The notes below the pieces were generated by a model. That model had not been told where the DNA came from. It saw only the letters and a list, made by a program, of their open reading frames with translations, and ran no database searches. A stretch of 64,000 bases of DNA, taken from a virus. Taxonomy: Duplodnaviria > Caudoviricetes. The stretch is from positions 42,485 to 106,484 of IMG/VR virus record IMGVR_UViG_2910013374_000001; one strand, written 5' to 3'. The position numbers and the translations under genes are program-made. Positions 36,801 through 62,960 of this stretch are shown piece by piece (the stretch's first letter is position 1; every line of letters starts with the position of its first letter).

Positions 36801-38878
36801 ATGCTTGCATCAACCAAGACATCGTCGATGGGGAGCTAGTTGACTCTTCACGATGTCAATCAGCAAGAAATAGTGCAGCGCAAGCTGATAAAAATCTACA
36901 GGACAACCTCGGATATCAACGCCAGCTTTCGCAACAGTTAAGGAACACGATTTACAGGCCTGCGGAATTCAAACAGGTCAGGAAATGCCAGTGTTGCGTT
37001 GATGGCATGTGTCGTCCTGAGGATGAGTGCACCTACGGAACTTGCTACCTCTGCGTCAAGAAACCGTCCAGCTACTTCCGGGCAGCTCTTTACACATCTG
37101 TTCTAGAGACTGAAGTCTGTACAGGTTGCACTGACCTGAATGGAAACACCCCTGCTCCTGGCGGCTGCACTATCGGGGAATTGGGCGAGGGATATAGCGG
37201 TGGAACGAATTCCGTTTATTTCAGCAGCGAGGAAGGGGACTGTGTGAAATACCGCTGCGAGGATGGCATCTCATGGGTGGATGAGCTTTGCACTGGAACC
37301 AATACTTCTTGGTATGACTACTGCTACGGATCAATCATTGGATGTGTCTTCTCCTGCCGTGACAATCCCAGCGGAGGCAACACCAGCTTCTACAACTATT
37401 GGAACGGTTGGAAATATGACATCGACTGCTCAGAGGCGGGCACGTATGCCTACAACAAGAACACAGAAGGCGATGGTGCAGATCCAAAGAAAGGCATTCG
37501 ACTAAGCAAACCTGAGGAGGATAAGTTCAAGACAGCTTGCGCTTATCCGAATCCGACCGGGTGTATCCAAGGTAATTGGCTCGTTAGATACACCTCCCTT
37601 GTTCAGATCCATCCCTGTTGCCATGAGGCAATCATCTATCACGAGTGCGATCCGGAGCATCCGAACTGCGCTGCAGGACTAGAGCTCCTGTTTGAAGCTG
37701 GCGACAAGACTGGGATCTTGAAGCGTCTGGAGGCTCAGATCAAGGCTCTGGAGAGATATCTTGAAAACCTCGACGAGGTGACGGAGCAACTCAAAGATCT
37801 CAAGGATGTTACGGACAGAGATATTGAGCAGCTTGAAAGAGATCTGGAAAATGCAGAGATTGATGATGACAAACTTGAAGATGATTTGATCAATGCGGAG
37901 GGCTTTATTCCACAGATTGAGGCCGATATAAAAAATCAAGAGCCCAAGGTTGAGAGTGCTACAGAGAAGCGAGATGAAGAATCAGAACAGCTTGAGGAGA
38001 GCAAGGATAAGATTGAAGAGTTGTCGATCGAGAAGGACGAACTAACAGAAGTGCTGACTATTCTCGAAGAAGACTTGGAGAACGCTCAGTCCAACAAAAA
38101 TAGTTCTAAAGCAGCGGCGGAACGCAAACGGAAGGAACTAATAAAGTTGAAGAATCAGCTAGCTATTCTTGGTCAAACAATTGTTGACTACGGCTGCGAA
38201 TGTCCAGGCGATTCCGATTGCGGCGAGCTTCCCAATGCTGACAGTCTTGAATGCTTCAATCTCCTGGAGGAACGTGAAGCATTGGAGATTCGGGCTGATG
38301 AAGTTGAATCAGAAAAGGATTTTCTAGAAGGTGAACGAGATTCCTATGCGGATGAGGAAGCAGAAATCAAAGTTGAAATAAAGCCGATCAAAGATGAAAT
38401 CAAGGAGCTCGAAAAGAAAATCAGCATAGAGCAGAGAAACTATCAAGTTTATTACAAGATTCTTGCCGATGCTCAGTACAAGCTTGATGAGGCGATTGCC
38501 GAGCTTGGATCCCTCAACAATGAACTCCTATCTACAAATCAAGAGGTCATCCGCCTCACTAAGCTTCTAGAAAGGGACGTGGTCCTCGACGAAGTTGGAG
38601 ATATCGAGGAACAGATTGCCAAGAAAGAAGAAATCCTTTCCAATATCGAAAACAGCAATCAAGAAATTGCAAACGAGAAGACCGAATCTGAATCAGAACT
38701 TTCTGCGAAAGAGTCTGAGTTCGACCGCTTGAAAGATGAGCTCGATGTCCCTGTTGTTCCCGAAGCCTCTGGCCCTCCTGCGGAAGGGAAGACCATGAAG
38801 GAGCTCAACGAGGAGTACAAGGAGGTGATTGAGGAAGATAAGAAGAAGGGAGAGGACAAGTGGTATCCAGGGCGCTAG
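30842..38878 (+). CDS. Giant cysteine-rich repeat protein (2678 aa) with C-terminal acidic coiled coil
   Basis: Dozens of C-x2-D-x-DC-x2-G-x2-C-x2-G-x-C modules; heptad-rich E/K/L C-terminus; no signal peptide visible. Confidence 0.9.
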   Translation: MSTERDLLNDLLRIQGEIRAMEQEEYELSYEEPDPGQRHGGIDGSDTYEQRSGLNYTDSSPASIPPGTLIVESPADDPGGLIFADHPRPQKNKDGSWTDAPCTNGVSCAGSDFCYSDYECDRCSQCVNSQCVEIDPNRPCNSNADCPCAPSEDQSYVCENTQCKLTCAETPDCPLGQACNLDSFLCEPGCESDDACDPSSSNAAPDAKSNSICVNFECVRPCEPDLICKGPNDTTTCPEGSYCGERVGKAQGDGDGEIYACLDGCSKNEQCQPEIFTERCDTDVDPDCSDKSYAYETFCVDNSCVRPCNGNEDCPTDFGYGCVAGICESIGFICVGDGDCGDGEYCNGDGRCSSGCTGDIDCRKECPALSECVSTCPPEPSCSCLTIYGEDSLCDPNDDSWKQFCERDPACLGRCPRDPGCLESFNPNAVCDQNTCITPCPCEEGYKCEEVEGRSPRCVSVTSRSTIEKCWEWTEETVDADGNIEIVEFRECAFISPKLDEDFYGCECGELCTKQGTCAPGVCSVDSDCESCSYCDDGVCVPGCDSENPCAAGKCCQNDGKCHLLCGSDSDCPDPEMCLAGGCCGIACEPIVTCNQKSDCPEGSYCSGAGICEAGCQEQSDCENGEICFQFGCEQSCGAGCLDGTICGPDGFCISTPKPPCSNDNDCTDGICLDGSCNSNGCRTDSECGRYGICSGQTCTNYCLDDAECASLNTETEDSRCQRDTGSQEEIRQRYERLKWMEANGQNPDPQELQRYTALFNNLTKAGKCALQPSGIDSPDGRTGCECYENCDEQGRCSRSVCANTGDCECGDCLTDNKCGYCRRDQDCKNSQVCDIAEGESDGVCATPCIPASPCGSDGDCPADSYCRPDAFGRTEEEGGGAQCTQGCRSDASCLPGQKCYDNRCLPTCSSGSDCNTDTELCLRGVCVEVGYSCLSDSDCPSSEGWCLNGYCAEDIRCSGDEDCSSSEVCNPATSMCEQGDRCSSSSDCKRTCESDLDCGNKQCESAADCTEPGQTCKQFGSVGICVGGSDYGACSSGLCIGGSSDNRYCDTRGVCQQGEACNSDSDCNFPKSCYNGGCQFKRRCNGDSQCQQGEFCDAGFCAGDNRCDGDYDCVEGYACNQSGRCFNDDQRVTAIEIGCEDCQICNPTTFRCGNEVCPGDGDNGDNGDECLSDSDCEAGKCVCDGSGEDRSCQCIECRNDQDCADAYGSGDLVCVENVCETPCYTGLSTGDCFTGLFYGDTCGNCPDKCPGNAVCTEVDKVCGTYEIFVEGKAYTRPILCKECVGNCQADSDCPDDSICSNSGATSGQCVSFDGTCDTDLDCQRFNSKFGESMYCMNNKCEVGETCIGSSDCSGQELCGGEGFCRKGVCLEDEDCGGGRTCVFGACEFTCEVQALVCECSLDPYSPGILCPEGYNCNCDTNLCSREGYPGIEPTMDAESCPSGTFCDTARKGCRPFIQGQLECFTDAGCFGAKTCEKGLCVSRDEFGEEVPDPDLGDNRDNAKAADNCEPLDKCCNDEGFCDDCPCDDEHPCQEGCCDPESGLCIDFNEHPQTELGAPESCTFGEVYCEVLGPEGDPLDVVVLGKGKGYQGCEFVYEDEDGIPLKDGERRKVCWSGADLSSAQTYKLLVQECKAEQEEDKECECDEVPPEEDECFRNKDCGNCMVCRSKTWQSTPCCPVADEAGNDSVTRNLCRAVNGTFEEEAPDEDEECGCLSASDCGPCEACNFNGLNGEEGRCVAKCEELCPDGGELSTGGKCPTCEERFGKCVEGVSATVKPAGVDPETGQAVPAVTKSTCQVKDANQCCSGFSTPEEAGKKRDSCELKTETDQNGNLETIEVPWCIDFDAGICAGCTEDSHCSGNKTCRGYQCVVQCGQENAVDPEAGDCSCCTDDGQCKELYENWTESRASGDEGQTRPCSCTQNGIDCAPYQEAESCYAWVRVDGGEGGDGDQAKADRDKNLEQLDEYEKQEPLLRFDLEDALAAVPDACINQDIVDGELVDSSRCQSARNSAAQADKNLQDNLGYQRQLSQQLRNTIYRPAEFKQVRKCQCCVDGMCRPEDECTYGTCYLCVKKPSSYFRAALYTSVLETEVCTGCTDLNGNTPAPGGCTIGELGEGYSGGTNSVYFSSEEGDCVKYRCEDGISWVDELCTGTNTSWYDYCYGSIIGCVFSCRDNPSGGNTSFYNYWNGWKYDIDCSEAGTYAYNKNTEGDGADPKKGIRLSKPEEDKFKTACAYPNPTGCIQGNWLVRYTSLVQIHPCCHEAIIYHECDPEHPNCAAGLELLFEAGDKTGILKRLEAQIKALERYLENLDEVTEQLKDLKDVTDRDIEQLERDLENAEIDDDKLEDDLINAEGFIPQIEADIKNQEPKVESATEKRDEESEQLEESKDKIEELSIEKDELTEVLTILEEDLENAQSNKNSSKAAAERKRKELIKLKNQLAILGQTIVDYGCECPGDSDCGELPNADSLECFNLLEEREALEIRADEVESEKDFLEGERDSYADEEAEIKVEIKPIKDEIKELEKKISIEQRNYQVYYKILADAQYKLDEAIAELGSLNNELLSTNQEVIRLTKLLERDVVLDEVGDIEEQIAKKEEILSNIENSNQEIANEKTESESELSAKESEFDRLKDELDVPVVPEASGPPAEGKTMKELNEEYKEVIEEDKKKGEDKWYPGR

Positions 38879-39513: not shown

Positions 39514-42500
39514 GTGGCAAAGCTCGATCAGATACTCCTGAAGACGAGCAACCTGAGCCAGAGGGATCTGATAGATACCCTCGAAGGTAGAGGGAGAGAT
39601 AGTCGAAATAGAATTGAAAAAGGCGAGACCGTTCTTCGCTATACCGGTGCTGGCAGGCTCGGCCCGGAAGGCGAGACGGTAAACGAGTCCCCTGGTCAAG
39701 TCGAATTCTGGACAGTCAACGACAGCGAGGAAGCTGTTCAGATCTACGTGGATTTCGGAGCTGAGATTCCGCCTTGGTCGACCTCCGAGCTGCAAGAAGC
39801 CAGCATCGGTCTCCTGAAGGACGTCGACATCCTCGATGGCGCCAGCGGCGGCGAGCTATTGCTGCAAGCTGGCAAGGTTCTCACCTGGGACGGCGCCAAG
39901 CTTGTGCTGCGCGATCCACCAGGGGTAGGGGAAGGCGCCAAGATCCTTGAGTCCCTGAACAATGTTGGTGACGTCAACTATGGCTTTTACGCAATATCCC
40001 TGAACAAGTTTGGACCTGAGGGTGGCGACATTCTCCTCTACAAGTTCAACAACCTGTCCTCAAAATATGAATGGGCACCGACCAAGTTTGAGATCGATCT
40101 GTTCGATGAATTCACGACCCGGAATCGGTTTCTCGTCTTCAACAGGACTGTCCACAAGGGCATCGAGTTTGGGAATCTCACATCTACTGCGACGTCATCT
40201 GCGCGTTTCTCGGACGCTGGCGGGGCATCCATGCTCTTCAACCAGTACAGAGGTAGGAATCTCAGCAACCGAATCCATGGCGTCGAAGCCAGTTCTTTCG
40301 GTTCCATCAATCTGTCAGTCCGAGACGGTGAAGACATCGTCATCAAACTTGGGGATGGCTATGCAAACAATGAAGGAAAACCTGGCGCTCTTAGATACGA
40401 GCGGATCGATGATGTTCCTTTAACTATTACTGACGAGAGATACTTCGCCACGCTCAAGCACGTCAATCAAGCGATACGTGATTCGGACCTTAACTTCCTC
40501 AACAACGTCAATGACACTGGGATCATTCAGGGACAGGTTTTGTCCTGGGATGCGATCAGACAGGAATACATCCCAACATCGGGGATCGCTCCAGACCTTT
40601 CTCAGGCTTCGATCGAGAGCCTCGAAGACGTCAATGCTCAAGCCAAGGGTCGCGGCAAGCCCCTGACCTGGAACGACACAGATAACACTTGGATCCCTGA
40701 GACTTTGAGGTCGAGAGATCTTGAGTGGGACTACAACCCAGAAGGTTTTGGCAATGGGGTTTTCTCAGAAGATGATCCTCTTGGAGAGGGTTATTGCGAA
40801 GAATGCAAGGAAGAGACTCTCGGCCAATTCACGGTTGCCAGAAACAAGGCTTATGTCTGCCTGAGAACTAGAGATCTCAATTCCAGTACGGGGAATTTCG
40901 AATCCACCTATGACTGGGTCAAGATCCTGGTCGACGGCTACAACCTGACCGAAAATCGCCGTCAATACGCTCCGAACGAGTACAGGCAGGCCTATGGCTT
41001 CGAGAAGCGAAGGGATGCCCTTTCTCCGGCTGCCTACGAGGGAACTCTTGGATCGCTAGCCAACGTCAGTACTGCTGACGTTTTCCCAGGTGCTGCTCCT
41101 ATCTACAACGCCTCGACGTCCTCCTTCGAGATGGGCTTCCCGGCTCTAGACCTGCAGAGCTATTCGGTAGGAGCGCTCGGCGATGTCAATCTCACCGGCG
41201 CTGGTGTGGGCTACGGACTGCTGTGGAACGGCGAGCAGTGGTACGCCAGCAGCCTGGACCAGAAAGTACGACTTGATGATCTTCAGGATGTTCAATTTGG
41301 ATCCTTAGGTGTTACCAACACCAAGATGGTTGCGGCGTTCATGCTTACGGACTCCCCGGCACTTGGCCCTACTTTTGTTTACAACCAAGACGTCTCTACG
41401 ACCCTCGCTGTTTCGACTCCAAAGGACAGCTACTTCCCAGGTTCCACGGCCTACGCCCGCTGGGGAGAAAATGCTTTTGGTGGTGGTCAAGCTCCTACTC
41501 AAGGTGGAACCTATTTCTTCAACTGGAGATCTCAGCCACCGATGTCAGTGGCCGAGATTCTTGACCTCTACATTCGCTGGCCGAAGGACAACTCCTGGCA
41601 GACGATCGACGGTGATGGTGTCATCGAGCTGTACTTCTATCCAACGCAGCTCCTCGACACCAGGACACTTTTCCGTCGCGTTTCTCTGCTCCCAGGCACC
41701 GGCGGCTACATCCTGCAACTCGATCAGACAGGCGCCTTGCGCTTTGCCGTGTCAGCACCTTCCGGCGAGATTGGCTTCACGATTTCAACGGTTTCCAACT
41801 TCATCTCGACTAACAACTGGCACCACGTCGCTCTTGTTAAAGAGGGAGCATCCAACAGGATGTATGTCGACGGGGATCTTGTAGGCGAGGCCCTAAGCAC
41901 CACCCCTTGGACAGGTGACGACATGTTCGTCATGGGTCGGAACGACCTCGATGACAACAATGTTCTGACGCATCATTTCTTCCGTGGTGTCATGTCTGAC
42001 CTGAGGGTCACCAAAGGACGCAGCAAATACAGCGGAAACTCTTATTCGCAGCCTGCATCAATCGAAGCTGAGATTATTGACACCACCCCGAATGCTGGCG
42101 ATTTTCTTAGTTACGACGGCACAAGGTGGACCAATGTTTCTGGCGTTGAGGGCGACATCAGCAACAAGTCGATCAATGAACTTGCAGATGTAGATACCGG
42201 CACCAACGACCCAGCACAGGGTGATGCCTTGGTCTGGACTGGCGCAGCCTGGGAGCCTGGCATTCCTGGCATTGGCGCCACGTGGTCGTTGAACGACATG
42301 ACAGATGTCGAGACCTTCTATCAATCAGGAACTCCTTCGATTCGCTTCTCTCAGGCCGAGAAGCTCAATTTCAGCAATGCCTTCAATGCAAGTGATGACG
42401 GGGGCTCGATAAGCCAGGCCCGCCAGGGGAACCAGTCCTTCGGGATTGTGACCCAGTGGAACGACTGCAGTCATGTGTGCGGGTCAGGAAGCCCCTGCGG

Positions 42501-45129
42501 GAACGACGGCCCGTACGCCAACGGCAGCACTTCTTACATCATGCCCACGAACAAGGGGCAGGTGATCGTCCGAGCTGAGCGGATGACGATCTCCAACGTC
42601 TTCCAGGATTGCAAGCTCGTTCCAGACACTTATCACGAGGATGCCCTTCACTACGCCGGTTGCCCCGATCGAGGAGAAAGTGATGGAAATGATCTTCCAG
42701 GAACCGTTCCGGAGACCTATATCCCCGCCTGGGGTGTCATCCAGGACCACGTTGACGAGATCCTGCCCTACGGCAAGCTCCGCCAGCTAGGCGATGTCGC
42801 GGCGACGCTTCCCACCCTTGGTCAAGCCCTGGCATGGAATGGTGTCGAGTGGGCTCCTACCAGCACGATCGCTGCAGATGTCTCGAATAACGAGCTGAAT
42901 GATCTGGGCAATGTTGATTGCTTAAGCGCTGTTCTCGACGACTTCCTGGTTTACGACGGTCAGTCCTGGAGGAATACACCCTTCAATGTGCAACTCCGTG
43001 ATCTCACGGACATGAGCGTTGAACGGTTCTATGTCGACGAACCGTTCAATACAACGAACATGAGGAATCCGCCTCGTGTCATCAACAACGTTGACCAGAA
43101 CGATCGACTCAGTGATGGGCTCATCTCAAGTGGATACAGAGGGATGCAGTGGGCCGGTGGTGCATCGGTCGCCACTCACGAAAACAAGACCACAACTCTT
43201 ACCTCGGGCAAACAGACAGGAACCCAGGTGCCGAATTGGACCTGGATCGAGCTGAATTCGTATTTCATACGCTTTGCCGGACATGGCCAGAACTGGGGAA
43301 GCCAGGGCTTACTGATCGGTGACAACCTGCTGATCAGGTACGAGAACCAAAACCGCGACCTCAATGACTATGGGCTTTTTGATGTAGCACCTAAAGGCGT
43401 TCTAGTCGATTACATCGACCTTGGACTAGCGAACCTTGACTTGTCACCAAATACGCTCGAGCAGCTCGGAAACGTCGATACCGCTGGAAAGGCTCCGGGC
43501 TATGCCCTTGTCTGGGATGGCACCAATTGGTCAGCTTCTCAAGGGGTAGCTGTTGACGTCAGCCTTACTTCTGTTGGCGAACTTCGTGACGTCACCAAGA
43601 CTGAGAATTCAGATCTAAGTACAAACGATGGGGTTCTGAGTTTTGATGTCGGCGAATTGCGCACGAATGCACCGCAAGAAAACCTTGGCGGCATCGAACT
43701 CACCAATGAGAACCGGACAGCACGGATCGGATGGTCTGGAGTCTGGGGCGGTTCTCCGATCATGGCCAACTCGGCCTATTCCTTGCTTCCTTCTTTTGTC
43801 CGCGTCCAAGAGCTGGAAATCCAGGTTCAAGCAGCTGGTGGTCTCCGTTACACCACCTCTCCTGGCTTAACCGACTCGACCATCCCTGCTTGGTCTCAGG
43901 TCAAGCAACAGATTGCAAGACAGGCGGCGGACTACACGGCGCTGTTCTTTATGGATGGCAACAGCTTCACTGAACGGAACTACGGCTGGCCGCTGGATGT
44001 TCAAGTCACGTCGCAGCCCAATCCGCAGTACTTCTCACCATTTGCTGATCAGTACTCATACAACCTGCGAAAAATCAACCAGGACAAGATCACGTGGTCC
44101 ACTGATGATGGCGCTCCTTTCCTTTGGAACACCGACACGCTTTGGTCAATGGAGATGTGGGTTTTCATCTCCGCGTCAGATGCCAGCGATGGGAAGCTTG
44201 AGTACATCCTGGCGCCGAAAGATAGAGGCTCGGGGCAATCCAAAGGGCTTCATATCGGCCTCTGCGGGGATCAACGAAACCTCTTTTTCTTCACTCTTGA
44301 CACTGCAAGCAATGAAAGTAACAGGCCCGCTAGCGGCTCTTTAACTGCTGAGGGCAACTTCGACGCTTGGAACCACGTTTATGTCGCGCACGAAGGTTCG
44401 GGCCGTCATCGCTTCTATCTCAACGGCCAGCTTGTCAATACGATTCAGCGAAACAGTGCCTTCACGATGCCTGGAGGCCTGGCTTTTGGTGGCCAGGAAA
44501 ATTCCAATGGTCAAAACGCTAACGGCTATCTAAGCGCCGCTTTAGATGACATTCGATTCACCAAGGGCTGGCTTCCTTACGCCACTGACACAAGCAATGT
44601 CCCGGTCCCTGTTGAACCGCTTCCCCCTGGTGCATGGAAAGCGGTCTTCGGCTCTCTTGACGCCTTGGAGGATGTCCAGTCCTCGGGGGCTTACGAGCCG
44701 TCCAACGGTCAGGTCCTGCAGTGGAACAACGTCGCTAAGGCTTGGAGGCCTGGACCTCTTGAAGCTGTCGCCTACGACGTCAGCTCCAACTCACTCACCG
44801 ACCTCGTAGACGTCGACACCACCAACTCGGTGCCCGACCAGGATGACGTTCTGCGCTGGGATGCTGCTCAAGCTGCCTGGCGTCGAAGCAAGGTCGATGG
44901 AAACGGAGGCATCACTCCCTTGGTGCAGCGAACTGCAACTCCTGGAGTTATCCCCAACCCTTCGATACTGAAGGCGGGTGAGCTGTTCTTGAACATGGCT
45001 GACCAAGTTCTCTACGCCCTGGACTCAGCTGGAGAGGCCTTCGCTTTTGCGACTGGTCAACTCGATGAGGACGGAATCCTCAGCGCAGTTGACACCACGT
45101 ACGACCGCGTGGTCGGAGGAACCTTCTGA
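39514..45129 (+). CDS. Long tail fibre with two LamG/ConA-like domains and LxDLxDV...LxW repeats
   Basis: WHHVALV...MYVDG...SDLRVTKG; WNHVYV...FYLNG...DDIRFTKG; ends VVGGTF. Confidence 0.82.
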   Translation: MAKLDQILLKTSNLSQRDLIDTLEGRGRDSRNRIEKGETVLRYTGAGRLGPEGETVNESPGQVEFWTVNDSEEAVQIYVDFGAEIPPWSTSELQEASIGLLKDVDILDGASGGELLLQAGKVLTWDGAKLVLRDPPGVGEGAKILESLNNVGDVNYGFYAISLNKFGPEGGDILLYKFNNLSSKYEWAPTKFEIDLFDEFTTRNRFLVFNRTVHKGIEFGNLTSTATSSARFSDAGGASMLFNQYRGRNLSNRIHGVEASSFGSINLSVRDGEDIVIKLGDGYANNEGKPGALRYERIDDVPLTITDERYFATLKHVNQAIRDSDLNFLNNVNDTGIIQGQVLSWDAIRQEYIPTSGIAPDLSQASIESLEDVNAQAKGRGKPLTWNDTDNTWIPETLRSRDLEWDYNPEGFGNGVFSEDDPLGEGYCEECKEETLGQFTVARNKAYVCLRTRDLNSSTGNFESTYDWVKILVDGYNLTENRRQYAPNEYRQAYGFEKRRDALSPAAYEGTLGSLANVSTADVFPGAAPIYNASTSSFEMGFPALDLQSYSVGALGDVNLTGAGVGYGLLWNGEQWYASSLDQKVRLDDLQDVQFGSLGVTNTKMVAAFMLTDSPALGPTFVYNQDVSTTLAVSTPKDSYFPGSTAYARWGENAFGGGQAPTQGGTYFFNWRSQPPMSVAEILDLYIRWPKDNSWQTIDGDGVIELYFYPTQLLDTRTLFRRVSLLPGTGGYILQLDQTGALRFAVSAPSGEIGFTISTVSNFISTNNWHHVALVKEGASNRMYVDGDLVGEALSTTPWTGDDMFVMGRNDLDDNNVLTHHFFRGVMSDLRVTKGRSKYSGNSYSQPASIEAEIIDTTPNAGDFLSYDGTRWTNVSGVEGDISNKSINELADVDTGTNDPAQGDALVWTGAAWEPGIPGIGATWSLNDMTDVETFYQSGTPSIRFSQAEKLNFSNAFNASDDGGSISQARQGNQSFGIVTQWNDCSHVCGSGSPCGNDGPYANGSTSYIMPTNKGQVIVRAERMTISNVFQDCKLVPDTYHEDALHYAGCPDRGESDGNDLPGTVPETYIPAWGVIQDHVDEILPYGKLRQLGDVAATLPTLGQALAWNGVEWAPTSTIAADVSNNELNDLGNVDCLSAVLDDFLVYDGQSWRNTPFNVQLRDLTDMSVERFYVDEPFNTTNMRNPPRVINNVDQNDRLSDGLISSGYRGMQWAGGASVATHENKTTTLTSGKQTGTQVPNWTWIELNSYFIRFAGHGQNWGSQGLLIGDNLLIRYENQNRDLNDYGLFDVAPKGVLVDYIDLGLANLDLSPNTLEQLGNVDTAGKAPGYALVWDGTNWSASQGVAVDVSLTSVGELRDVTKTENSDLSTNDGVLSFDVGELRTNAPQENLGGIELTNENRTARIGWSGVWGGSPIMANSAYSLLPSFVRVQELEIQVQAAGGLRYTTSPGLTDSTIPAWSQVKQQIARQAADYTALFFMDGNSFTERNYGWPLDVQVTSQPNPQYFSPFADQYSYNLRKINQDKITWSTDDGAPFLWNTDTLWSMEMWVFISASDASDGKLEYILAPKDRGSGQSKGLHIGLCGDQRNLFFFTLDTASNESNRPASGSLTAEGNFDAWNHVYVAHEGSGRHRFYLNGQLVNTIQRNSAFTMPGGLAFGGQENSNGQNANGYLSAALDDIRFTKGWLPYATDTSNVPVPVEPLPPGAWKAVFGSLDALEDVQSSGAYEPSNGQVLQWNNVAKAWRPGPLEAVAYDVSSNSLTDLVDVDTTNSVPDQDDVLRWDAAQAAWRRSKVDGNGGITPLVQRTATPGVIPNPSILKAGELFLNMADQVLYALDSAGEAFAFATGQLDEDGILSAVDTTYDRVVGGTF

Positions 45130-47474
45130 TGGCAGATCTAAACGCAAGAATCCTGCCCCTCCGTACAGAAGTACAGGGACGAGAACCTGACGACTTGACG
45201 ATGGTGGGACTGGGGCAGGACCCCATCGATGTGGGCGAGCTGGTCCTCAACCTCGAGGATCGCAAGATCTTTTCCAAGAAATCCGACGGCACGATCGTCA
45301 CCCTTGGATCTGGCTCGTTGGATTCCAATGACCTCCTTCCTGGTGAGCTCCTAGGCCAGGCGCTCGTATGGAACGGCGTGGATTGGGTGAATGGCCCGGT
45401 GCTCGGCGGACTGCCTCCGGCTGCTGTTGGAGGTGATCCCACCACCACCTTCCTCACCAACATGGAGGGCAATGGCAACAACACTGCTGGAGCGAAAGAA
45501 GCGCTCACCTATGTCGGAGACTCTGCCTTCGATTCCAAGACACTGTTCGGCACCGGGAGCGTCTTCAATCCAGGCACCGGATCTTGGGTGAATTGGGAAA
45601 GAAGTCAGGCCTACAAGCTGGACCAGAACGAATGGACTCTCGAGTTTTGGTTCTCGTCGGATGGCGTCCTGGTCGATGATGGCGAATGGATCCTGAGCGC
45701 ATCCGCTGGCGACAGTGGTGACTATGGATGGAGGGAAGAGAATGGCAATTACTGGAGCACCAAGGTTGGAGCCAGGCAGGCCACATTCAGCTATTGGTCA
45801 GGCTCAGAACAGCAGAACATCGTCTGGAATTACGTCCCGCTCGACTACAGCCGCAAGTGGATCAACGTTGTATTTCAAGCAAGCGGCAGTGGCCTGTCCC
45901 TTTGGTTGGATGGCGTCTTCTTTGGGTCCAAGTCGTATGTCAAGAGTGCCGACCCCACAGGATTGCTCCCTCGGCTGACCTTTGGCAGCTTCGAGGAGAG
46001 CACTGAAGGCAACCCTGTCTTCGAGGGGTGGCTTGGTGGTGCACGGATCATTCAAGGGCGGACCCAATACGCGCCATTGGTTGACCACGAGGTCATAGCT
46101 GAGCCCTTCGGGTCGACGGGTGACCTCGGATTCAACCTGCAAAAACTCGAGGATGTCTCGATCAACAGGTTGGAGTTAAAGGACGGCCAGGCCTTGGTCT
46201 ACGACTCCTCGTCCAACACCTTCGCCAATCGTTTTGCTCGCATCCAAGATTCCGGAGACTTCCAGCTGAGCGAGTCGTTGCCGACTGTCGCCAGGTGGGA
46301 TCAAGGGAGTGAATCAAACCCTGGCCAGTACTCAGTTGACGGTGAGACATGGCTACTCAACGTCGTCGATAGCGCGACGAACGATCAGACCTTGCTTATC
46401 GAGGAGGCGAGCACATCAGGGATTCTCTTTTGGTCTGCAGATGGAATCTCTTGGAATGAGACCCCATACAGCGGCTTGTTTTTGGGTGCACTTCTTGTCC
46501 GAATTGACTTTGCAACCGCTCCGCTTCCTGGTCCGAGCTTATTTCTGGCATTCGATACTCCAGGAGCTGAGGTCTCGTATCCGCTAAGAGAAGGAGACAC
46601 TCTCAAGTGGGACGGTGCGAAGCAGGCTTTCCGGCCAATCCCGCTCAGTTCGCTCGGCATCAATGTCAACGACCTGGTCGATGTCAACACACTGACCAAT
46701 CCACCGACTCAAGGACAAGCCTTGGTTTGGGATGCAATCGCTGGGACATGGAAGCCAGGAGACGTCGCGACCGACGTCAGTGGAATCGTTCTGGAGGAGT
46801 TGGCTGACACAGCCTTCACGGGCCTGACAACTGGCCAGATCATTCGATACGACGGATCCAACTGGATCAACGAGACCCTGGACTACAGCCTGGTTCGAAA
46901 CGCACCAACGATCCCCACCACGATCTCCACGCTCGACGACACAGATTTTTCTGATGCACCAACTGTCGGTCAGGTTCTTGTCTGGAATGGAAGCAAATGG
47001 ACTCCAGCGGATCCAACGGGCGGTGGCGGCGGTGGATCTACGACAGCAGGAGCTATCACCGAACGTGCAGACATCACGGTTGGAGCCAGTCTTGACTCGA
47101 ACAGCAGTGCGAATCTTGATTTCAATGGGCTAGGAGAAGCTGGCTCCTTCGTGCAAGTCACTACAAGTTCGGCGGCTTGGGTGCGGTTCTATCCGACCAG
47201 TCAGGATCGATTGAGTGACATAACCAGAGACGAGGACACTGATCCTTTGCCGGGGTCTGGGGTGCTTCTTGAGATCCGAACGAAGCAACCTGGACAGGTC
47301 GTCAAGATCACTCCCGCTGCGCTGTACTACAACAACGATCTTCTCCCCGAGCAGAAGCTTTACGCCAGGGTCACCAATCGCAGTGGCGAAACAGCTCTCG
47401 TCAACGTGACAGTCAGGGCCTTCACTCAGACAGACACCCAGGCAATCTCCGGCGGGACCTTCGGCTCTGGCTAG
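45129..47474 (+). CDS. Tail fibre with LamG-like domain
   Basis: WTLEFWF...LWLDG; LxDV repeats; ends ISGGTFGSG. Confidence 0.8.
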   Translation: MADLNARILPLRTEVQGREPDDLTMVGLGQDPIDVGELVLNLEDRKIFSKKSDGTIVTLGSGSLDSNDLLPGELLGQALVWNGVDWVNGPVLGGLPPAAVGGDPTTTFLTNMEGNGNNTAGAKEALTYVGDSAFDSKTLFGTGSVFNPGTGSWVNWERSQAYKLDQNEWTLEFWFSSDGVLVDDGEWILSASAGDSGDYGWREENGNYWSTKVGARQATFSYWSGSEQQNIVWNYVPLDYSRKWINVVFQASGSGLSLWLDGVFFGSKSYVKSADPTGLLPRLTFGSFEESTEGNPVFEGWLGGARIIQGRTQYAPLVDHEVIAEPFGSTGDLGFNLQKLEDVSINRLELKDGQALVYDSSSNTFANRFARIQDSGDFQLSESLPTVARWDQGSESNPGQYSVDGETWLLNVVDSATNDQTLLIEEASTSGILFWSADGISWNETPYSGLFLGALLVRIDFATAPLPGPSLFLAFDTPGAEVSYPLREGDTLKWDGAKQAFRPIPLSSLGINVNDLVDVNTLTNPPTQGQALVWDAIAGTWKPGDVATDVSGIVLEELADTAFTGLTTGQIIRYDGSNWINETLDYSLVRNAPTIPTTISTLDDTDFSDAPTVGQVLVWNGSKWTPADPTGGGGGGSTTAGAITERADITVGASLDSNSSANLDFNGLGEAGSFVQVTTSSAAWVRFYPTSQDRLSDITRDEDTDPLPGSGVLLEIRTKQPGQVVKITPAALYYNNDLLPEQKLYARVTNRSGETALVNVTVRAFTQTDTQAISGGTFGSG

Positions 47475-47508
47475 CCGGAAGCCTAGCGGCGTCTGACGCC
47501 CAGCCTCC

Positions 47509-50500
47509 GTGACTGACTTCATCGCAAGAATCAAGCCGAAGCGTTCGACGGTTTCTGGTGAAGTTCCTGCGCCTACGGATTTAGAGCTGGCGGAGTTAGC
47601 AGTCAATACGGCCGATGGTGTTCTCTTTACCAAGCACACAGATGGAACGATCAAGTCCATCTCCGGCGGAGGTGGAAGCGGTGGTGGCACGATCGAAAGC
47701 ATCGGAAACGTCGAACCTCGGCAGGTTGCCACCAGCTACGCCTCATGGAACAACGGCGAGAGCGCAACGAGTGCCGGTGGGTGGTTTTACGACATCGATG
47801 CAAGTTCTACTCTCACTCTCAACAAGGAAGATGCCAACGGCGACCTCGTTACGCCATACGTCTCAACACTGCCAGCGAGTGGAACGTTTTGGTGGAGTAA
47901 CGACGACATCAACTTCCTTGCGACCGCTTACAGCAACCTGGCAATCAATGGTGCGGCAGGACTGATCACCTTCGACGTCGTCGAACTACCAGGGATTCAG
48001 AGCTCCTCAACGCTTTACGTCGCCTGGGCGGATCCGTACAGCGAATCGGCCAGCTTCGACGGCGATCTCTTGGTGTTCGATGCCACGAAGGGTCAATGGG
48101 TCCCAACGTCTGCAGAGCTAAGCGTCCCGAACAAACTCGTGGACCTGGATGACGTCGATCTGACACCGACTGAGCTTGTCGACGACCTTCCGGTGGTCTG
48201 GGATGGATCGAGCCAGACGTTCAAGGCGGACTTCCCGCTCCTCTCTATTGACCCACAGGAGGGGGCACGTTCATTTGGAGGCAGCCTTGGACTGCTTGGA
48301 CCTTCTACTTTTTACGGAATACCCCAAGACGCAGTGGGGGACGGCTGGACAGACCTGAATTTGACCGGTGATGACCGGTCCCACCGTCTCCAAACCCCAG
48401 CGGATTTAGTCGGTGTCGTGTTCTATGGCAAGCCAATTCCGGCCGAGATTCTCTTCGACACCAATGGGGCCCTTTACTGGGGAGTCAATGCGCAAGAGAT
48501 AAGTTTTATCGGCGGAGGCGACATACGCGACGACGCAGACAGAGGCAGCGAGTTTTTTCTCGCTTTGTGGAGTCAAGACACACAGGCAAGGGCCACGTTT
48601 GAGCAGTTCGATGGAACGACCTGGACCCTTCGACTAGAGCAGCGGCTCCCCTACAACAGCCAAAACGGAGTTCCAGTTGAGGTCAGCTTCAAGACCGATG
48701 GCACGATCAGGGTGATCTATGGCAGCAACAGTGGATCCGACATCCAACTCGGCTCCCGACGCCAGGGAATCGTTATTGATGATGAGCTGATTGTTGGTGG
48801 CTGGAGCTATCAAGGAGATGGTCACCTTGGAAACTTCACTTGGGAGACGTTCAAGATCCTCGGCGGCGGTCGGGGGATAGAAGATCTATCAAACGTCTCA
48901 CGAACACTTCCAGCGCAGGGAGAAGTCCTGCAGTGGGACGAAAACTTTCAACAATTCCGACCCGGTCCGGTCTTAACTCTTAGTGATTCAGCACCTATTG
49001 TCGATCAGTATCACGTTATTGCTGAAGAAGATGTAATAGTTTCCGGCAATATCGACGAAGGCACGTGGGGAATTGATTATGGGATCATCATTTTTGGTAC
49101 GCAAAACCCTTCTATTCCTGTTGATGACCTGAGAAGGTTGCAACCTGGGGACGAACTTACATTCACTAAGGATGGCTTTCCACCTTTCAATGTAAAAGTC
49201 GACCAAGCAGCGCAACCACTTCTATCGTATTCAGATGTTGAGTATGTCGATCTGTTATTACAGGCACCTGCTGAACTTAGTTACGTTGCTGGCGTAGCAA
49301 TCAGTTCCCCTCGGTTTGAGGATGGAGCTACTGACGGACAAGCGACCCAGTACATCCTTCAATGGCACGATTCCGATCAGAAATATAAAACTGCTGAGCT
49401 CCGTTTACCTGAAGCTGCTGTCGGGAGTGTCAACGAACAGACAGGTGAAGTAAGCCTGGGCATCCAGGACATGAATGATGTCTTACTCCCTGGAGGAAAT
49501 CTTTCAGACGGCGACATCCTGAAGTGGAATAACGGACTTCAATCGTTCGTGGGTGCTCAGCTTCCTGAGCCCTCCGTCAATCTCGATGACCTCGAGGACG
49601 TTGATCTCGCCACGACACTTCCAACTGACAGACAGGTGCTGGGCTACGACGCGGCAAGCCAGGGATGGAAACCGCTAACGGTGGCTTTCGATGATGAGAT
49701 AGATGCGATAGAGGCTTGGGTTGAGGCCAAGGGCTATGCAACCGAAACCTGGACCGAGTCTTTCGTTGATGCGCAGGACTTTGCGACCGAGGCTTGGGTT
49801 GATCTATGGCTTCTGGCGAAGAACTACGCGACGAAGACCTGGGTTACAGACAAGAACTACGCCGCCCAAGTCTGGGTCGAAAATAAGAACTACGCCACAG
49901 AGTCTTGGGTTGAAAATAAGACTTATGCAACAGAGGCCTGGGTTGAAGAAAAGAGTTATGCAACAGAGGTCTGGGTTGAAGAGAAGAGTTATGCAAGCGA
50001 GACCTGGGTCGAAGAGAAGAGTTACGCCACGGAGACCTGGGTCCAAGCAGAGATCCAGGCAGAGATTGGAGCGCTTCAAGCTGAGGTTTTAACCCTGCAG
50101 GACCAGCTCGAAACCAAGATCGACCCAGCCCCGCAAGACGGATCTGCTTACGTTCGTCAGGACGGACAGTGGCTCAGCCTCGCTGGAGTTCTTGCTGCTC
50201 TTGGCTTCCAGCCCGGTGGCGGTGGAGGTCCTCAGACGCCAGACGTCCCTGAAGTCATCAATGGCGGTGACTTCTCAACCGGTGCTGCTGGAAGTGTCGA
50301 CCTGACTCTTGCTGGTGGCAACTTCACGACAGGATCAGCTGGCAACAGTGACGCGACCCTCGACGGAGGCAACTTCTCTGGCGGCACCGTGACCGCTTCT
50401 GGTGGTGACTTCACGACTGGCGCGGCTGGTGGTATCGATGCGAGCTACGGCGGTGGGGACTTCAGCAGCGGAGCCCCTGGCCAGTCCAATGTGACTCTCG

Positions 50501-51345
50501 ACGGCGGTTTCATCTCGCCTGACATTCTTGAGGAAACTCTCAGTGGCGGCGACTTCACCAGTGGAGTCGGTGGAACCGACGACAGGTCCTTCGGTGGCGG
50601 CGACTTCCGCAGTGGTCAGTCCAGTGGTTCGGATGAATATCTCGACGGTGGAGTCTTCTCTTCAGGTAGCGGTGGCCCCTCTTTCGGCGGCGGCGACTTC
50701 GGATCCGGTGGTTCTGGTGGGCCCGACGTCACTCTGAGCGGTGGCAATTTCTCGAGCGGAGAATCAGGCTCGACCGATATCACCCTTGATGGCGGAGTCC
50801 TCGATGGTGGTGGATTGCTGGCTGGTGGCGGTGACTTCATCAGCGGCGGATTCGGTGGTCCTGACATCACTTATGGAGGCGGCGACTTCTCAGCCGGTGG
50901 TTCTGGCTCTGAGGACGTGACTCTTGATGGAGGCTTCTTCGAGGGTGATGGCCTGACGACCGGTGGCGGCGACTTCACTGCTGGTGGATCCGGCGGCCCC
51001 GATGTGACTTACGGAGGCGGTGACTTCTCGACCGGAGGCCCTGGCTCTGGTGATGTGAACCTTGATGGTGGTGACTTCGGCGGCCCTGAAGCAAGCGGCG
51101 GTGACTTCACTTCCGGCCAATCCGGTGATGACAACTCAACCTATGGAGCCGGAGACTTCTCGACCGGAACATCCTCGGGAGAGTCAGTGACCATGGATGG
51201 TGGCGACTTCACCGCTGAGGGTGGTGGCGACTTCACGAGCGGCGGAGCGGGTGGAGCTGATGTGACATTTGGGGCTGGCGACTTCACTTCCGGCGAGTCA
51301 TCTGGAGCCGCTGTCGAAATGGATGGAGGCGACTTCAGCAGCTGA
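47509..51345 (+). CDS. Tail fibre with YATExWV hendecad repeats and 24 C-terminal GGxF motifs
   Basis: Repeats read directly from the translation. Confidence 0.82.
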   Translation: MTDFIARIKPKRSTVSGEVPAPTDLELAELAVNTADGVLFTKHTDGTIKSISGGGGSGGGTIESIGNVEPRQVATSYASWNNGESATSAGGWFYDIDASSTLTLNKEDANGDLVTPYVSTLPASGTFWWSNDDINFLATAYSNLAINGAAGLITFDVVELPGIQSSSTLYVAWADPYSESASFDGDLLVFDATKGQWVPTSAELSVPNKLVDLDDVDLTPTELVDDLPVVWDGSSQTFKADFPLLSIDPQEGARSFGGSLGLLGPSTFYGIPQDAVGDGWTDLNLTGDDRSHRLQTPADLVGVVFYGKPIPAEILFDTNGALYWGVNAQEISFIGGGDIRDDADRGSEFFLALWSQDTQARATFEQFDGTTWTLRLEQRLPYNSQNGVPVEVSFKTDGTIRVIYGSNSGSDIQLGSRRQGIVIDDELIVGGWSYQGDGHLGNFTWETFKILGGGRGIEDLSNVSRTLPAQGEVLQWDENFQQFRPGPVLTLSDSAPIVDQYHVIAEEDVIVSGNIDEGTWGIDYGIIIFGTQNPSIPVDDLRRLQPGDELTFTKDGFPPFNVKVDQAAQPLLSYSDVEYVDLLLQAPAELSYVAGVAISSPRFEDGATDGQATQYILQWHDSDQKYKTAELRLPEAAVGSVNEQTGEVSLGIQDMNDVLLPGGNLSDGDILKWNNGLQSFVGAQLPEPSVNLDDLEDVDLATTLPTDRQVLGYDAASQGWKPLTVAFDDEIDAIEAWVEAKGYATETWTESFVDAQDFATEAWVDLWLLAKNYATKTWVTDKNYAAQVWVENKNYATESWVENKTYATEAWVEEKSYATEVWVEEKSYASETWVEEKSYATETWVQAEIQAEIGALQAEVLTLQDQLETKIDPAPQDGSAYVRQDGQWLSLAGVLAALGFQPGGGGGPQTPDVPEVINGGDFSTGAAGSVDLTLAGGNFTTGSAGNSDATLDGGNFSGGTVTASGGDFTTGAAGGIDASYGGGDFSSGAPGQSNVTLDGGFISPDILEETLSGGDFTSGVGGTDDRSFGGGDFRSGQSSGSDEYLDGGVFSSGSGGPSFGGGDFGSGGSGGPDVTLSGGNFSSGESGSTDITLDGGVLDGGGLLAGGGDFISGGFGGPDITYGGGDFSAGGSGSEDVTLDGGFFEGDGLTTGGGDFTAGGSGGPDVTYGGGDFSTGGPGSGDVNLDGGDFGGPEASGGDFTSGQSGDDNSTYGAGDFSTGTSSGESVTMDGGDFTAEGGGDFTSGGAGGADVTFGAGDFTSGESSGAAVEMDGGDFSS
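49735..50046 (+). repeat. ~33-bp coding tandem repeats (YATETWVEEKS)
   Basis: About nine imperfect copies. Confidence 0.85.
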
Positions 51346-51346
51346 T

Positions 51347-51405
51347 CGAGGCCCTCTCAAAGACAAGATCTGCGCCCGTACATGAAACGGGTGCAGAACC
51401 AGAGG
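51347..51405 (-). repeat. Dispersed 59-bp element, copy 4 (inverted)
   Basis: CGAGGCCCTCTCAAAGACAAGATCTGC-N22-GAACCAGAGG on + strand. Confidence 0.9.
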
Positions 51406-51444
51406 TTCCCGGAACCCTGACTGCGAAACCACAGCGTCACCCCG

Positions 51445-53142
51445 ATGCCAGTCCCCTCCCCACGCTCGAAGCTGCTGCCCGCACGGGGTAACGCAGCCGA
51501 TCTACTTGCCAATGTCTCCGCCCTTGTCGAGGGTGAGATCTGTTATGCGATCGACGAAAATTCCTACTACCAGAAAGTCGGCGCCTCCCTCGTAAAAGTT
51601 TCAGGCGGATCAGGATCCGGAACTTCTTACGACGACACCGCTCTTGCTGGTCGCGTGACAACGGTCGAGGGAGAGGTTGATGCTCTTGAGACAACCGTTG
51701 CTGGGCTCTCCAGCTATGACGACACCGCTCTTGCTGGTCGCGTGACGACTGTCGAAGGCGACGTTGATGCCCTGGAGACCACCGTTGCTGGGCTCTCCAG
51801 CTATGACGACACCGCTATCGACGGCCGTGTCACTCAACTCGAATCAGACGTCTCTGGTCTGAGTGCCTACGACGACACTGCACTGGCTGCTCGCGTGACT
51901 CTCGCCGAGAGCGACGTCGATACTCTCGAGACCGACGTCGATACTCTCGAGACCGATGCAACTGCGTTGGCTGCTCGCGTGGCTCTCGCTGAAGGTGAAA
52001 TCACCGACATCAAAGCCGATGCGCTCACCACGGCTGCAATCGACACAACTCAACAGTTAGCTCTGAATGATCTAGGCCCCCGAGTCACCACTCTTGAGAG
52101 CTCTACATATAACGGCCCCACCATCAGTGGTGACTTCGGAATAGCAACCGGGACCGCAGCCTTCGCTCCGGGGGATGGGAGTGTCCTCACCTTTACTGCG
52201 ACGGGCGATCAGTTTCACACTTTTACTGTGGGAAATACATACCCTCAAGGCGGGGTATCCGGAACTACTTGGGCATTGGACAACGGGAGTGTTTTCTATG
52301 GCTTGAATGAACCCACGATTCCTGTCGATGATCTAAGAAGATTGCAAGTTGGGGACGAGGTTACATTTATCATCCCTGGAGAATCAGTTCCTTTCACGGC
52401 TACAGTTACCCAATCAAACACAACAGCCACTTCTGAGATTGAGTACTTAATCCTGGGCTTACAAAATCCTGCCGGTACGAGTTTTATACCTGGGACAACA
52501 ATCAGTTCTCCAAAGTTTCAGGATGGAATCACCGAAGGCCTTTACTTCCCTGCGCCCTCTAGCTCTTCCCTCAGCTCCCTGACCGATGTTGATGCACTCA
52601 CTCCATCGGATGGCAATGTTCTCGCTTACAACAACACAGCCGGTAAGTGGGAGCCAACTGCACCAGCAACCGGTGGCGGTTCCGGTGGAGAGATCACTGG
52701 TCAATACAACATCGACACCGGCATCGCTGAAGCTCCTCCCCAGGAAGGACAAGTGCTGACCTGGAATGAGTCCGCCGGCTACTACTTGCCATCGGCTCCT
52801 TCCGGCGGCGGCGGCGGATCCTCGACCGTGACCGGTGACATCGAGATCGATCAAGGAATTGCGGCGTCCTCTCCGCAAGCAAATACCGCGTTGATGTTCA
52901 ACGCGATTGCAAACAAATTCATCCCTAGTGAGACATTCCGAATCGTTGGCATCGCACTGACTTTTGCCGACACATCAGCGAAACCAATATGGGAAGATCC
53001 CGGCACCGTTGGTGATGTTTTCATCGACGCTTACGACTGGACGATGGTCATCTACACCGGTCCGTTTGATCCGAACGAGGGCGCTGGTGGCTGGCTTCAG
53101 ATCGATATGAACCAATCGGGTGGCGGTGGAGGCCTTGCCTGA
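51445..53142 (+). CDS. Tail fibre with YDDTALAGRVTTVE coiled-coil repeats
   Basis: N-terminal RG...L.EGEI.Y..D domain; 87-bp near-perfect duplication from 51628. Confidence 0.8.
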   Translation: MPVPSPRSKLLPARGNAADLLANVSALVEGEICYAIDENSYYQKVGASLVKVSGGSGSGTSYDDTALAGRVTTVEGEVDALETTVAGLSSYDDTALAGRVTTVEGDVDALETTVAGLSSYDDTAIDGRVTQLESDVSGLSAYDDTALAARVTLAESDVDTLETDVDTLETDATALAARVALAEGEITDIKADALTTAAIDTTQQLALNDLGPRVTTLESSTYNGPTISGDFGIATGTAAFAPGDGSVLTFTATGDQFHTFTVGNTYPQGGVSGTTWALDNGSVFYGLNEPTIPVDDLRRLQVGDEVTFIIPGESVPFTATVTQSNTTATSEIEYLILGLQNPAGTSFIPGTTISSPKFQDGITEGLYFPAPSSSSLSSLTDVDALTPSDGNVLAYNNTAGKWEPTAPATGGGSGGEITGQYNIDTGIAEAPPQEGQVLTWNESAGYYLPSAPSGGGGGSSTVTGDIEIDQGIAASSPQANTALMFNAIANKFIPSETFRIVGIALTFADTSAKPIWEDPGTVGDVFIDAYDWTMVIYTGPFDPNEGAGGWLQIDMNQSGGGGGLA

Positions 53143-53166: not shown

Positions 53167-53193
53167 GGCTTCGCTTCGGCGGGGCCTTTTTTT
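53167..53193 (+). terminator. Intrinsic terminator
   Basis: GGCTTCGC-TTCG-GCGGGGCC + T7. Confidence 0.8.
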
Positions 53194-61100: not shown

Positions 61101-61157
61101 GACCCGCTGCGGTGTAAGCTCTTCGCGGAAGTCATTGCCGTTAGGCTTTGCCTGCCT

Positions 61158-61231
61158 GCCTCCATAGCTCAGCCGGTTAGAGCGACGGATTCATAGCCCG
61201 TAGGTCGCCTGTTCAAGTCAGGCTGGAGGCA
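61158..61231 (+). tRNA. Phage-encoded tRNA-Met (CAT), elongator type
   Basis: Acceptor GCCTCCA/TGGAGGC+A, D arm, anticodon arm ACGGA-TTCATAG-CCCGT, T arm GCCTG-TTCAAGT-CAGGC. Confidence 0.92.
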
Positions 61232-61241
61232 TTCTCACCGG

Positions 61242-62917: not shown

Positions 62918-62960
62918 GGGGTTATGAATCCCACGCTCTAACCAGCTGAGCTACCGAGCC
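62918..62960 (-). pseudogene. 5' half of host tRNA-Met (CAT), interrupted at prophage att site
   Basis: GGCTCGGTAGCTCAGCTGGTTAGAGCGTGGGATTCATAACCCC then no pairing T arm and no CCGAGCC acceptor strand. Confidence 0.85.

What the first reader, a model, noticed from the sequence alone, without database searches (positions are those of the whole stretch)
45100..51600. Candidate phage 'scaffoldin': 8 triplets of GGxF peptides that could dock trimeric fibres
Seen: the C-terminus of 47509-51345 (nt ~50254-51342) holds 24 GG(D/N/x)F-type motifs arranged as 8 triplets. Spacing within a triplet is a fixed 13 residues, the third motif is always DGGx(F/I/L), and linkers between triplets vary. The two preceding fibres end in single GGTF motifs (VVGGTF, ISGGTFGSG). 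Fibres 45129, 47509 and 51445 start with, and 39514 ends with, a related R-x(n)-P-x-L-x-GE-L-x-N-x-D domain. Established: that domain type (Mtd N-terminal/hyaluronidase-like) is a trimeric fibre attachment module. Inference: GGxF is its ligand. A homotrimer ending in GGTF would present 3 motifs and bind one downstream trimer, whereas each triplet would wrap one trimer, so this chain could display 8 fibres. This would be a cellulosome-like branched appendage that I do not recognise as described.
Basis: partly seen in the sequence, partly recalled or inferred. Interest (0 to 1): 0.88.

Follow-up and report, generated by a model that had tools for sequence, protein, structure and literature searches.

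The report
Phage fibre with eight docking triplets
A marine cyanobacterial prophage encodes a fibre whose floppy tail repeats a short docking tag in eight sets of three, most likely so that many copies of the next fibre can clip onto it like bristles on a brush; similar multi-fibre 'ropes' are known from a few phages, but this tag code appears undescribed and binding is not yet shown.

Summary
Observation confirmed: 24 GG(D/N/x)F motifs form 8 triplets (period 17, variable linkers). The host element is a P-SS2-like cyanosiphovirus prophage. The triplet grammar is conserved in about 25 homologues, with 2-9 triplets each.

The N-domains have the Mtd-N/collagen-XV trimerization fold; those of 45129 and 47509 are homologous to the T4 gp37 N-terminus. 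In 157 loci picked by the N-domain alone, 77/84 genes before such a domain end in the motif, against 1/315 other genes. gp37-type domains follow single motifs; 51445-type domains follow doublets, triplets or arrays. P-SS2 lacks both the tag on its 45129 orthologue and the two downstream fibres.

Best reading: a tandem docking 'rope' for 51445 oligomers. A foldon makes 47509 a trimer, so capacity is up to 24, not 8. 'One triplet wraps one trimer' is plausible but unproven, since doublets are the commoner partner.

Multi-fibre display is known (A1002/GP4 ropes, two Mtd trimers per BPP-1 fibre), so this is a new variant. This scan noted the single plug/socket pairing before on other DNA.

The parts
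39514..45129 (+). Fibre 1 (1871 aa): divergent socket-like N-domain, LamG domains, a C-terminal socket-fold domain (nt ~44905-45066) and a single C-terminal tag VVGGTF (nt 45109-45126). Orthologue of P-SS2 gp86, a virion protein.
45129..47474 (+). Fibre 2 (781 aa): gp37-type N-terminal socket (nt 45129-45320) and a single C-terminal tag ISGGTFGSG (nt 47445-47471). Orthologue of P-SS2 gp87, which lacks the tag.
47509..47673 (+). N-terminal socket of the scaffold fibre, homologous to the T4 gp37 N-terminus and 70% identical to S-CBS2 gp32
   Evidence: (PHROG 1699, E 2.4e-8)
47509..51345 (+). Scaffold fibre (1278 aa, GTG start): socket, fibre body, helical repeats, foldon, tag array
50116..50187 (+). 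T4-fibritin-like foldon (trimerization) directly before the array
   Evidence: (fibritin 1AVY, E 2.8e-6)
50263..51336 (+). Array of 24 motifs in 8 A-A-B triplets (A = GG[DN]F followed by x-x-G turn; B = DGGx[FIL] exit motif); acidic, Gly-rich, 55 D/E vs 2 K/R
51445..51600 (+). PARG-type N-terminal socket, predicted ligand partner of the triplets; Mtd-N/collagen-XV trimerization fold
51445..53142 (+). Cargo fibre (565 aa, ATG start): socket, coiled coil (aa ~62-220), variable distal part; followed by a terminator-like hairpin at 53167-53186

Best explanation
The four genes build one fibre appendage by tag-and-socket joints in gene order. Trimeric 39514 presents three C-terminal GGTF tags to the N-terminal socket trimer of 45129, and 45129 does the same for 47509. 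These are linear joints of the T4 gp36-gp37 kind. 47509 trimerizes through its socket and foldon and ends in three disordered tails. Each tail carries eight A-A-B units, and each unit is a docking site for one oligomer of 51445 through its PARG-type socket. Most likely the three tags zig-zag round the three equivalent grooves of one trimer (short strand, GG turn, Phe anchor). The result is a bottle-brush tip with 8-24 copies of the 51445 fibre per scaffold trimer, raising avidity or reach. Shown: the motifs, their grammar, domain homology and fold, the foldon, genomic coupling and subtype specificity. Inferred: physical binding, the wrap geometry, stoichiometry, and display on the virion.
For: Adjacency in 157 loci chosen by socket only: 77/84 upstream genes end in the tag vs 1/315 other genes; tags occur in 9 of 12 clusters of upstream proteins. 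Subtype rule: gp37-type sockets follow singlets 9/10; PARG-type sockets follow 55 doublets, 17 triplets, 2 arrays and no singlet. Four T4-like gp36 genes end in D-[FY]-G-x-[YF] directly before gp37, which has the same N-domain. BPP-1 Bbp9 has two such motifs in loops interrupting its helical repeats, matching two Mtd trimers per fibre (PMC2408619). P-SS2 gp87 has no tag and P-SS2 has no 47509 or 51445; its gp86 and gp87 are virion proteins (PMC2784084). In all 7 homologous array loci first examined the next gene starts with the same PARG socket while the rest of that protein varies. Units of 3 dominate: 121 of 154, plus 6 units of 6. Triplet number varies from 2 to 9 while internal spacing stays 16-18, as expected of modular sites. 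Linkers of 8-14 residues make it sterically implausible that three chains converge on each of eight stacked trimers (inference).
Against: No binding or structure of the joint is known to me, and none was computed. The commonest partner of PARG-type sockets is a doublet, which would fill only two of three grooves. About 12 distant homologues end in a triplet plus one extra motif, and three carry doublets in the array. Related loci are not independent, so the adjacency P-value overstates the evidence. The oligomeric state of 51445 is inferred from fold and coiled coil only. No cultured phage with an array was found (low-complexity filter on).
Confidence: 0.72

Rival explanations
1. Same partners, different stoichiometry (a sub-case counted inside the 0.72; this is its share). 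The doublet or triplet is one extended epitope for a single subunit or asymmetric site, or tags from different chains share a trimer as proposed for BPP-1 loops. The array still docks many 51445 fibres, but not by symmetric three-fold wrapping.
For: A and B motifs differ systematically; 55 doublets vs 17 triplets precede PARG sockets; one orthologous fibritin-like family has a triplet in some phages and a doublet in another.
Against: Arrays are built almost only of threes with fixed internal spacing; the socket fold is a C3 trimerization fold.
Confidence: 0.27
2. The tail folds autonomously (a Ca2+-bound beta-roll or hairpin stack) or acts as an acidic, Gly-rich adhesive or spacer. Only its last unit joins 51445 in a 1:1 linear chain.
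For: Gly/Asp-rich repeats with a 17-residue period resemble RTX rolls; the tail is strongly acidic. AF2 draws short hairpins at the motifs.
Against: No RTX nonapeptide (0 matches). AF2 on a homologous tail gave mean pLDDT 44.8 (8 sequences only, so weak). Identical units occur singly at the ends of unrelated fibres directly before sockets, which points to a ligand role. All units keep the full tag grammar.
Confidence: 0.13
3. The tags are real ligands but for other partners or purposes: sockets encoded elsewhere, the 39514 C-terminal domain, or a transient assembly chaperone role. The array is not displayed as a brush on mature virions.
For: Distant loci encode two or three different PARG-socket proteins downstream. 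39514 has two socket-fold domains with no identified tag.
Against: 51445 is the only PARG-type socket in the 106-kb element. Orthologues of the proximal chain members are virion proteins in P-SS2.
Confidence: 0.1
4. The array is a neutral product of repeat expansion by slippage or recombination, with only one functional unit.
For: Unit number varies from 2 to 9 among relatives.
Against: Units within the window are only 42-76% identical in protein and 53-74% in DNA, yet all keep the tag residues and 17-residue spacing; arrays persist in clades about 35% identical.
Confidence: 0.05

Closest known systems
Rope-protein chain-like fibres of podophages A1002 (gp39) and GP4 (PMC13730344)
   Same: One extended polypeptide offers tandem sites that dock many fibre oligomers (11 in A1002, 5 in GP4) by beta-sheet augmentation.
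   Different: Cargo there are small dimers on a rope from the nozzle or a separate protein. Here the predicted cargo are long fibres with an Mtd-N-type socket, the sites are A-A-B tag triplets, and the rope is the triple tail of a distal fibre in a siphovirus. No homology was shown.
Phage T4 long tail fibre, gp36-gp37 joint
   Same: Homologous N-domain (47509, 45129); the upstream gene ends in D-x-G-x-aromatic; gene order equals assembly order.
   Different: T4 has one tag per chain and an unbranched 1:1 joint; no multi-tag units or arrays.
Bordetella phage BPP-1 Bbp9 fibre with Mtd (PDB 1YU0; PMC2408619)
   Same: Same socket fold; two Mtd trimers per fibre; Bbp9 has two tag-like loops.
   Different: Single internal tags on a coiled fibre give 2 copies. 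Here triplets in a disordered tail give 8-24. That Bbp9's loops bind Mtd is my inference.
Synechococcus siphovirus S-CBS2 gp30-gp31-gp32 and P-SS2 gp86-gp87
   Same: Cultured relatives with the same tags and sockets; S-CBS2 gp30 ends in one triplet before a PARG socket; annotated or shown as structural proteins.
   Different: No tandem array; the joints were not described as such in the papers I could read.
Branched tailspike networks (CBA120 TSP4/TSP2, G7C gp66) and cellulosome scaffoldins (from my own knowledge)
   Same: One hub displays several binding proteins.
   Different: There the hub carries folded receptor domains (T4-gp10-like XD domains; cohesins). Here the polarity is reversed: short linear tags on the hub, folded socket on the cargo.

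Membership tests
Mtd_N (PF18454) / collagen XV-XVIII trimerization fold | Pfam Mtd_N score above the curated cut-off | tested here: not met
   Best E 0.04, in 2 of 14 aligned domains
Mtd_N (PF18454) / collagen XV-XVIII trimerization fold | Same small beta-prism fold | tested here: met
   AF2 model pLDDT 74; VIA Z 6.5 (rmsd 1.8, 46 aligned) to 3N3F, Z 5.3 (rmsd 2.4, 45 aligned) to Mtd 1YU0 residues 5-51, Z 3.8 to HylP. Z values are modest, but the top three rows share this fold. Atlas feature hit Mtd_N 0.94
Mtd_N (PF18454) / collagen XV-XVIII trimerization fold | Homotrimer | not testable with these tools
T4 gp36-gp37-type joint | gp37-like N-terminal domain | tested here: met
   47509 N-domain: PHROG 1699 E 2.4e-8; tblastn to 1099 phage records including T4 gp37
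T4 gp36-gp37-type joint | Upstream gene ends in one D/x-x-G-x-aromatic tag | tested here: met
   39514 to 45129 and 45129 to 47509; T4-like gp36 ends
T4 gp36-gp37-type joint | Physical end-to-end binding | not testable with these tools
   Needs structure or pull-down
Rope-protein chain-like fibres (A1002, GP4) | Extended chain with tandem docking sites occupied by many fibre oligomers | tested here: inconclusive
   Tandem sites present and genomically coupled to a socket; occupancy not shown
Rope-protein chain-like fibres (A1002, GP4) | Cargo are ~140-170 aa dimers of the GP4 gp80 fold | tested here: inconclusive
   51445 is 565 aa with a coiled coil; its N-domain matches trimerization folds; only residues 1-56 were modelled
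RTX / Ca2+ beta-roll | Tandem GGxGxDxUx nonapeptides | tested here: not met
   0 matches in the tail
RTX / Ca2+ beta-roll | Autonomous parallel beta-roll fold | tested here: inconclusive
   AF2 mean pLDDT 44.8 on a homologous tail, 8 sequences
Cellulosome scaffoldin | Tandem folded cohesin domains binding dockerins | tested here: not met
   No cohesin or dockerin Pfam hit at E 0.1; repeats are 38-residue low-complexity units. Works-like analogy only
CBA120/G7C branched tailspike hub | T4-gp10-like XD docking domains on the hub | tested here: inconclusive
   No such Pfam or PHROG hit on 47509; body of the protein not folded

The most novel reading that the evidence does not exclude
Phages use a valency code at Mtd-N/gp37-type joints: one tag per chain makes a linear 1:1 joint, while a three-tag unit lets one chain wrap one whole socket trimer. 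Tandem units then turn a fibre tip into a bottle-brush of up to 24 trimeric fibres, with copy number tuned by adding or deleting units (2-9 among relatives).
Probability: 0.42. Interest if true: 0.8.

Novelty: new variant of a known kind. Interest (0 to 1): 0.64.

Why it matters
If right, fibre architecture (order, branch points, copy number) can be read from sequence in many marine phages. It would also explain the unsolved T4 gp36-gp37 and BPP-1 fibre-Mtd joints with one motif. A 38-residue peptide that clamps a ~50-residue trimerization domain (fold shared with collagen XV/XVIII) would be a compact tool for multivalent display. Biologically, it suggests how cyanosiphoviruses raise encounter rate or avidity in dilute water. 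Multi-fibre ropes as such are already known, which limits the surprise.

Tried and rejected
Sequence search of the socket against PDB found nothing significant. Foldseek gave no hit at E 0.001, only weak ones in the same fold. The tail had no match in cultured phages by tblastn (low-complexity filter on), no usable Atlas hit and no single-query hit in IMG/VR. Literature searches for the motifs found nothing relevant; the library lacks most subscription journals, and Dai et al. 2010 was not held. My recollection that crAss001 has such a 'fibre dock' domain was wrong. A tree test of doublet vs triplet against socket subtype was started but not completed. The AF2 tail model was of the L003 homologue, not the window protein. 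No promoter explains the 99-nt gap before 51445. RTX, cohesin and neutral-expansion readings were considered and scored low.

Full report
Context. The window is the right part of a 106-kb element. Its scaffold protein is on record on a 2.73-Mb contig, so this is probably a prophage. It encodes a tape measure protein, a major tail protein, a capsid protein and an integrase. The capsid protein is 70% identical to that of Prochlorococcus siphovirus P-SS2. Genes 30842, 38915, 39514, 45129, 53238, 54311 and 55198 are syntenic orthologues of P-SS2 gp84-gp90. P-SS2 gp84 and gp86-gp90 were detected in purified virions (PMC2784084). Genes 47509 and 51445 are a two-gene addition relative to P-SS2.

Observation. 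The C-terminal 360 residues of 47509 hold 24 motifs in 8 groups of three. Spacing is 17 residues start to start within a group and 8-14 between groups. Two motifs read AGDF instead of GGDF. Shuffling never produced a triplet. The first two motifs of a group (type A) are GG[DN]F followed by an x-x-G turn; the third (type B) is DGGx[FIL] and lacks the turn in most units. A T4-fibritin-type foldon lies just before the array, so the protein is very likely a trimer with three such tails.

Homologues. Searches with the tail gave about 25 arrays from metagenomes. The six close relatives have 18, 18, 18, 18, 21 or 24 motifs. Parsed by the A/B rule, the arrays give 121 units of three, 6 of six, 9 of two, 16 of one and 2 of four (the parse clips the first two motifs of the window protein and parts of P0013, P0016 and P0024). 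A distant clade ends in a triplet plus one extra B motif, hence counts of 3n+1, and three proteins have doublets at the end. Units within the window are only 42-76% identical, so the grammar is maintained by selection and is not a recent duplication.

The partner domain. The N-domains of 47509 and 45129 are homologous to the T4 gp37 N-terminus. That of 51445 is a second subtype (PARG type; hhalign to the first subtype, probability 78%). The N-terminus of 39514 belongs to a third, divergent subtype. An AF2 model of the 51445 domain (pLDDT 74) matches the collagen XV/XVIII trimerization domains, Mtd residues 5-51 and the HylP N-domain. Pfam Mtd_N is not reached at its cut-off.

Coupling of tag and socket. 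I fetched 157 viral and metagenomic loci using only the socket as query. Of the long genes directly before a socket, 77 of 84 end in the tag; of other genes, 1 of 315. The loci are related, but tags occur in 9 of 12 clusters of upstream proteins. The subtypes differ: gp37-type sockets follow a single tag (9 of 10), while PARG-type sockets follow doublets (55), triplets (17) or arrays (2), never a single tag. Seven PARG sockets scored as having no terminal tag; on inspection most of these have a degenerate or internal unit upstream. In the 106-kb element only three long + strand ORFs end in a tag, and each precedes one of the three N-terminal sockets detected.

Known phages fit the rule. Four T4-like gp36 genes end in D-[FY]-G-x-[YF] directly before gp37. 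S-CBS2 runs triplet, PARG socket, single tag, gp37 socket across gp30-gp32. BPP-1 Bbp9 has two tag-like loops interrupting its helical repeats, and cryo-EM suggests two Mtd trimers per fibre (PMC2408619). P-SS2 is a natural control: gp86 keeps its tag and gp87 its socket, but gp87 has no tag and no socket gene follows.

Mechanism. The simplest reading is a chain 39514, 45129, 47509 joined by single tags, ending in three tails whose units each hold one 51445 oligomer. With linkers as short as 8 residues, eight trimers cannot each be gripped on-axis by all three chains, because each trimer's own fibre must point away (inference). A unit from one chain must therefore be enough to hold one oligomer. 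Wrapping of a C3 socket by A-A-B is the natural geometry: 17 residues can span the distance between symmetry-related grooves, and the x-x-G turn after type A motifs would carry the chain on. The many doublets show that two tags also suffice for related sockets, so exact three-to-three matching remains unproven (my estimate 0.45 of the 0.72). A weak supporting hint: 10 of 11 array genes start with GTG while the downstream socket genes start with ATG, in line with less scaffold than cargo, but these loci are kin.

Rivals. Autonomous folding is disfavoured: there are no RTX nonapeptides, a shallow AF2 model of a homologous tail has pLDDT 45, and the same unit occurs singly before sockets in unrelated fibres.

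Comparison and novelty. Extended chains that dock many fibre oligomers are known: A1002 gp39 binds 11 dimers and the GP4 rope binds 5 (PMC13730344). BPP-1 shows two Mtd trimers per fibre. The idea is therefore not categorically new. I found no paper describing this tag, its valency rule or tandem triplet arrays, within the limits of the library. Earlier notes of this scan report the single tag/socket pairing in other phages; they are unchecked AI notes, and I saw them after my own T4 and BPP-1 checks. Verdict: a real feature and a new variant of a known kind, with a well-supported ligand role and an unproven geometry. Interest 0.64.

Noticed in passing
window 39514-39740 and 44905-45066: 39514 has socket-fold domains at both ends with no identified tag partner in the neighbouring genes; the C-terminal one, also in P-SS2 gp86, may simply trimerize the three tags.
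   Followed up: partly
window 30842-38878: 2678-aa Cys-rich protein with a C-terminal coiled coil, orthologue of P-SS2 gp84 (29% over the full length, a virion protein); no family hit for the Cys-rich part.
   Followed up: partly
window 61157-61232, 61242-62687 and ~62923-62953: tRNA-Met next to an integrase 31% identical to P-SS2 Int, a 31-bp inverted partial copy of the tRNA beyond it, then a host-like M23/LysM gene; bet lies at the far end of the 106-kb contig. Consistent with an integrated P-SS2-like prophage; attachment sites not mapped.
   Followed up: partly
window 53010-53110: The C-terminus of 51445 has a G-D-V-F-I-D...Y-T-G segment that resembles the socket core and is conserved in relatives; it may trimerize or carry a tip protein.
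   Followed up: no
L003:10001-13639, L005:10001-13186, L041:7553-10957: Distant array proteins end in a triplet plus one extra tag and are followed by up to three different PARG-socket genes and a subtilase (Peptidase_S8), suggesting mixed cargo.
   Followed up: partly
L003:3531-9980, L038:4077-9980, L039:1872-9980: Large upstream fibres carry one internal triplet (spacing 19-22) rather than a terminal one, which would be a side branch point.
   Followed up: partly
L061:4599-6125 (BPP-1 bbp9): Two tag-like loops at aa 201 and 425 match the reported two Mtd trimers per fibre.
   Followed up: partly
L029:9467-11714, L032:11243-13241, L034:10131-11951: Other phage contigs show a weakly related socket preceded by genes ending in an F-N-C-G-S-S variant tag.
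   Followed up: no
window 49690-50030: About nine tandem 10-residue repeats (consensus Y-A-T-E-x-W-V-E-x-K) in 47509 before the coiled coil and foldon.
   Followed up: no
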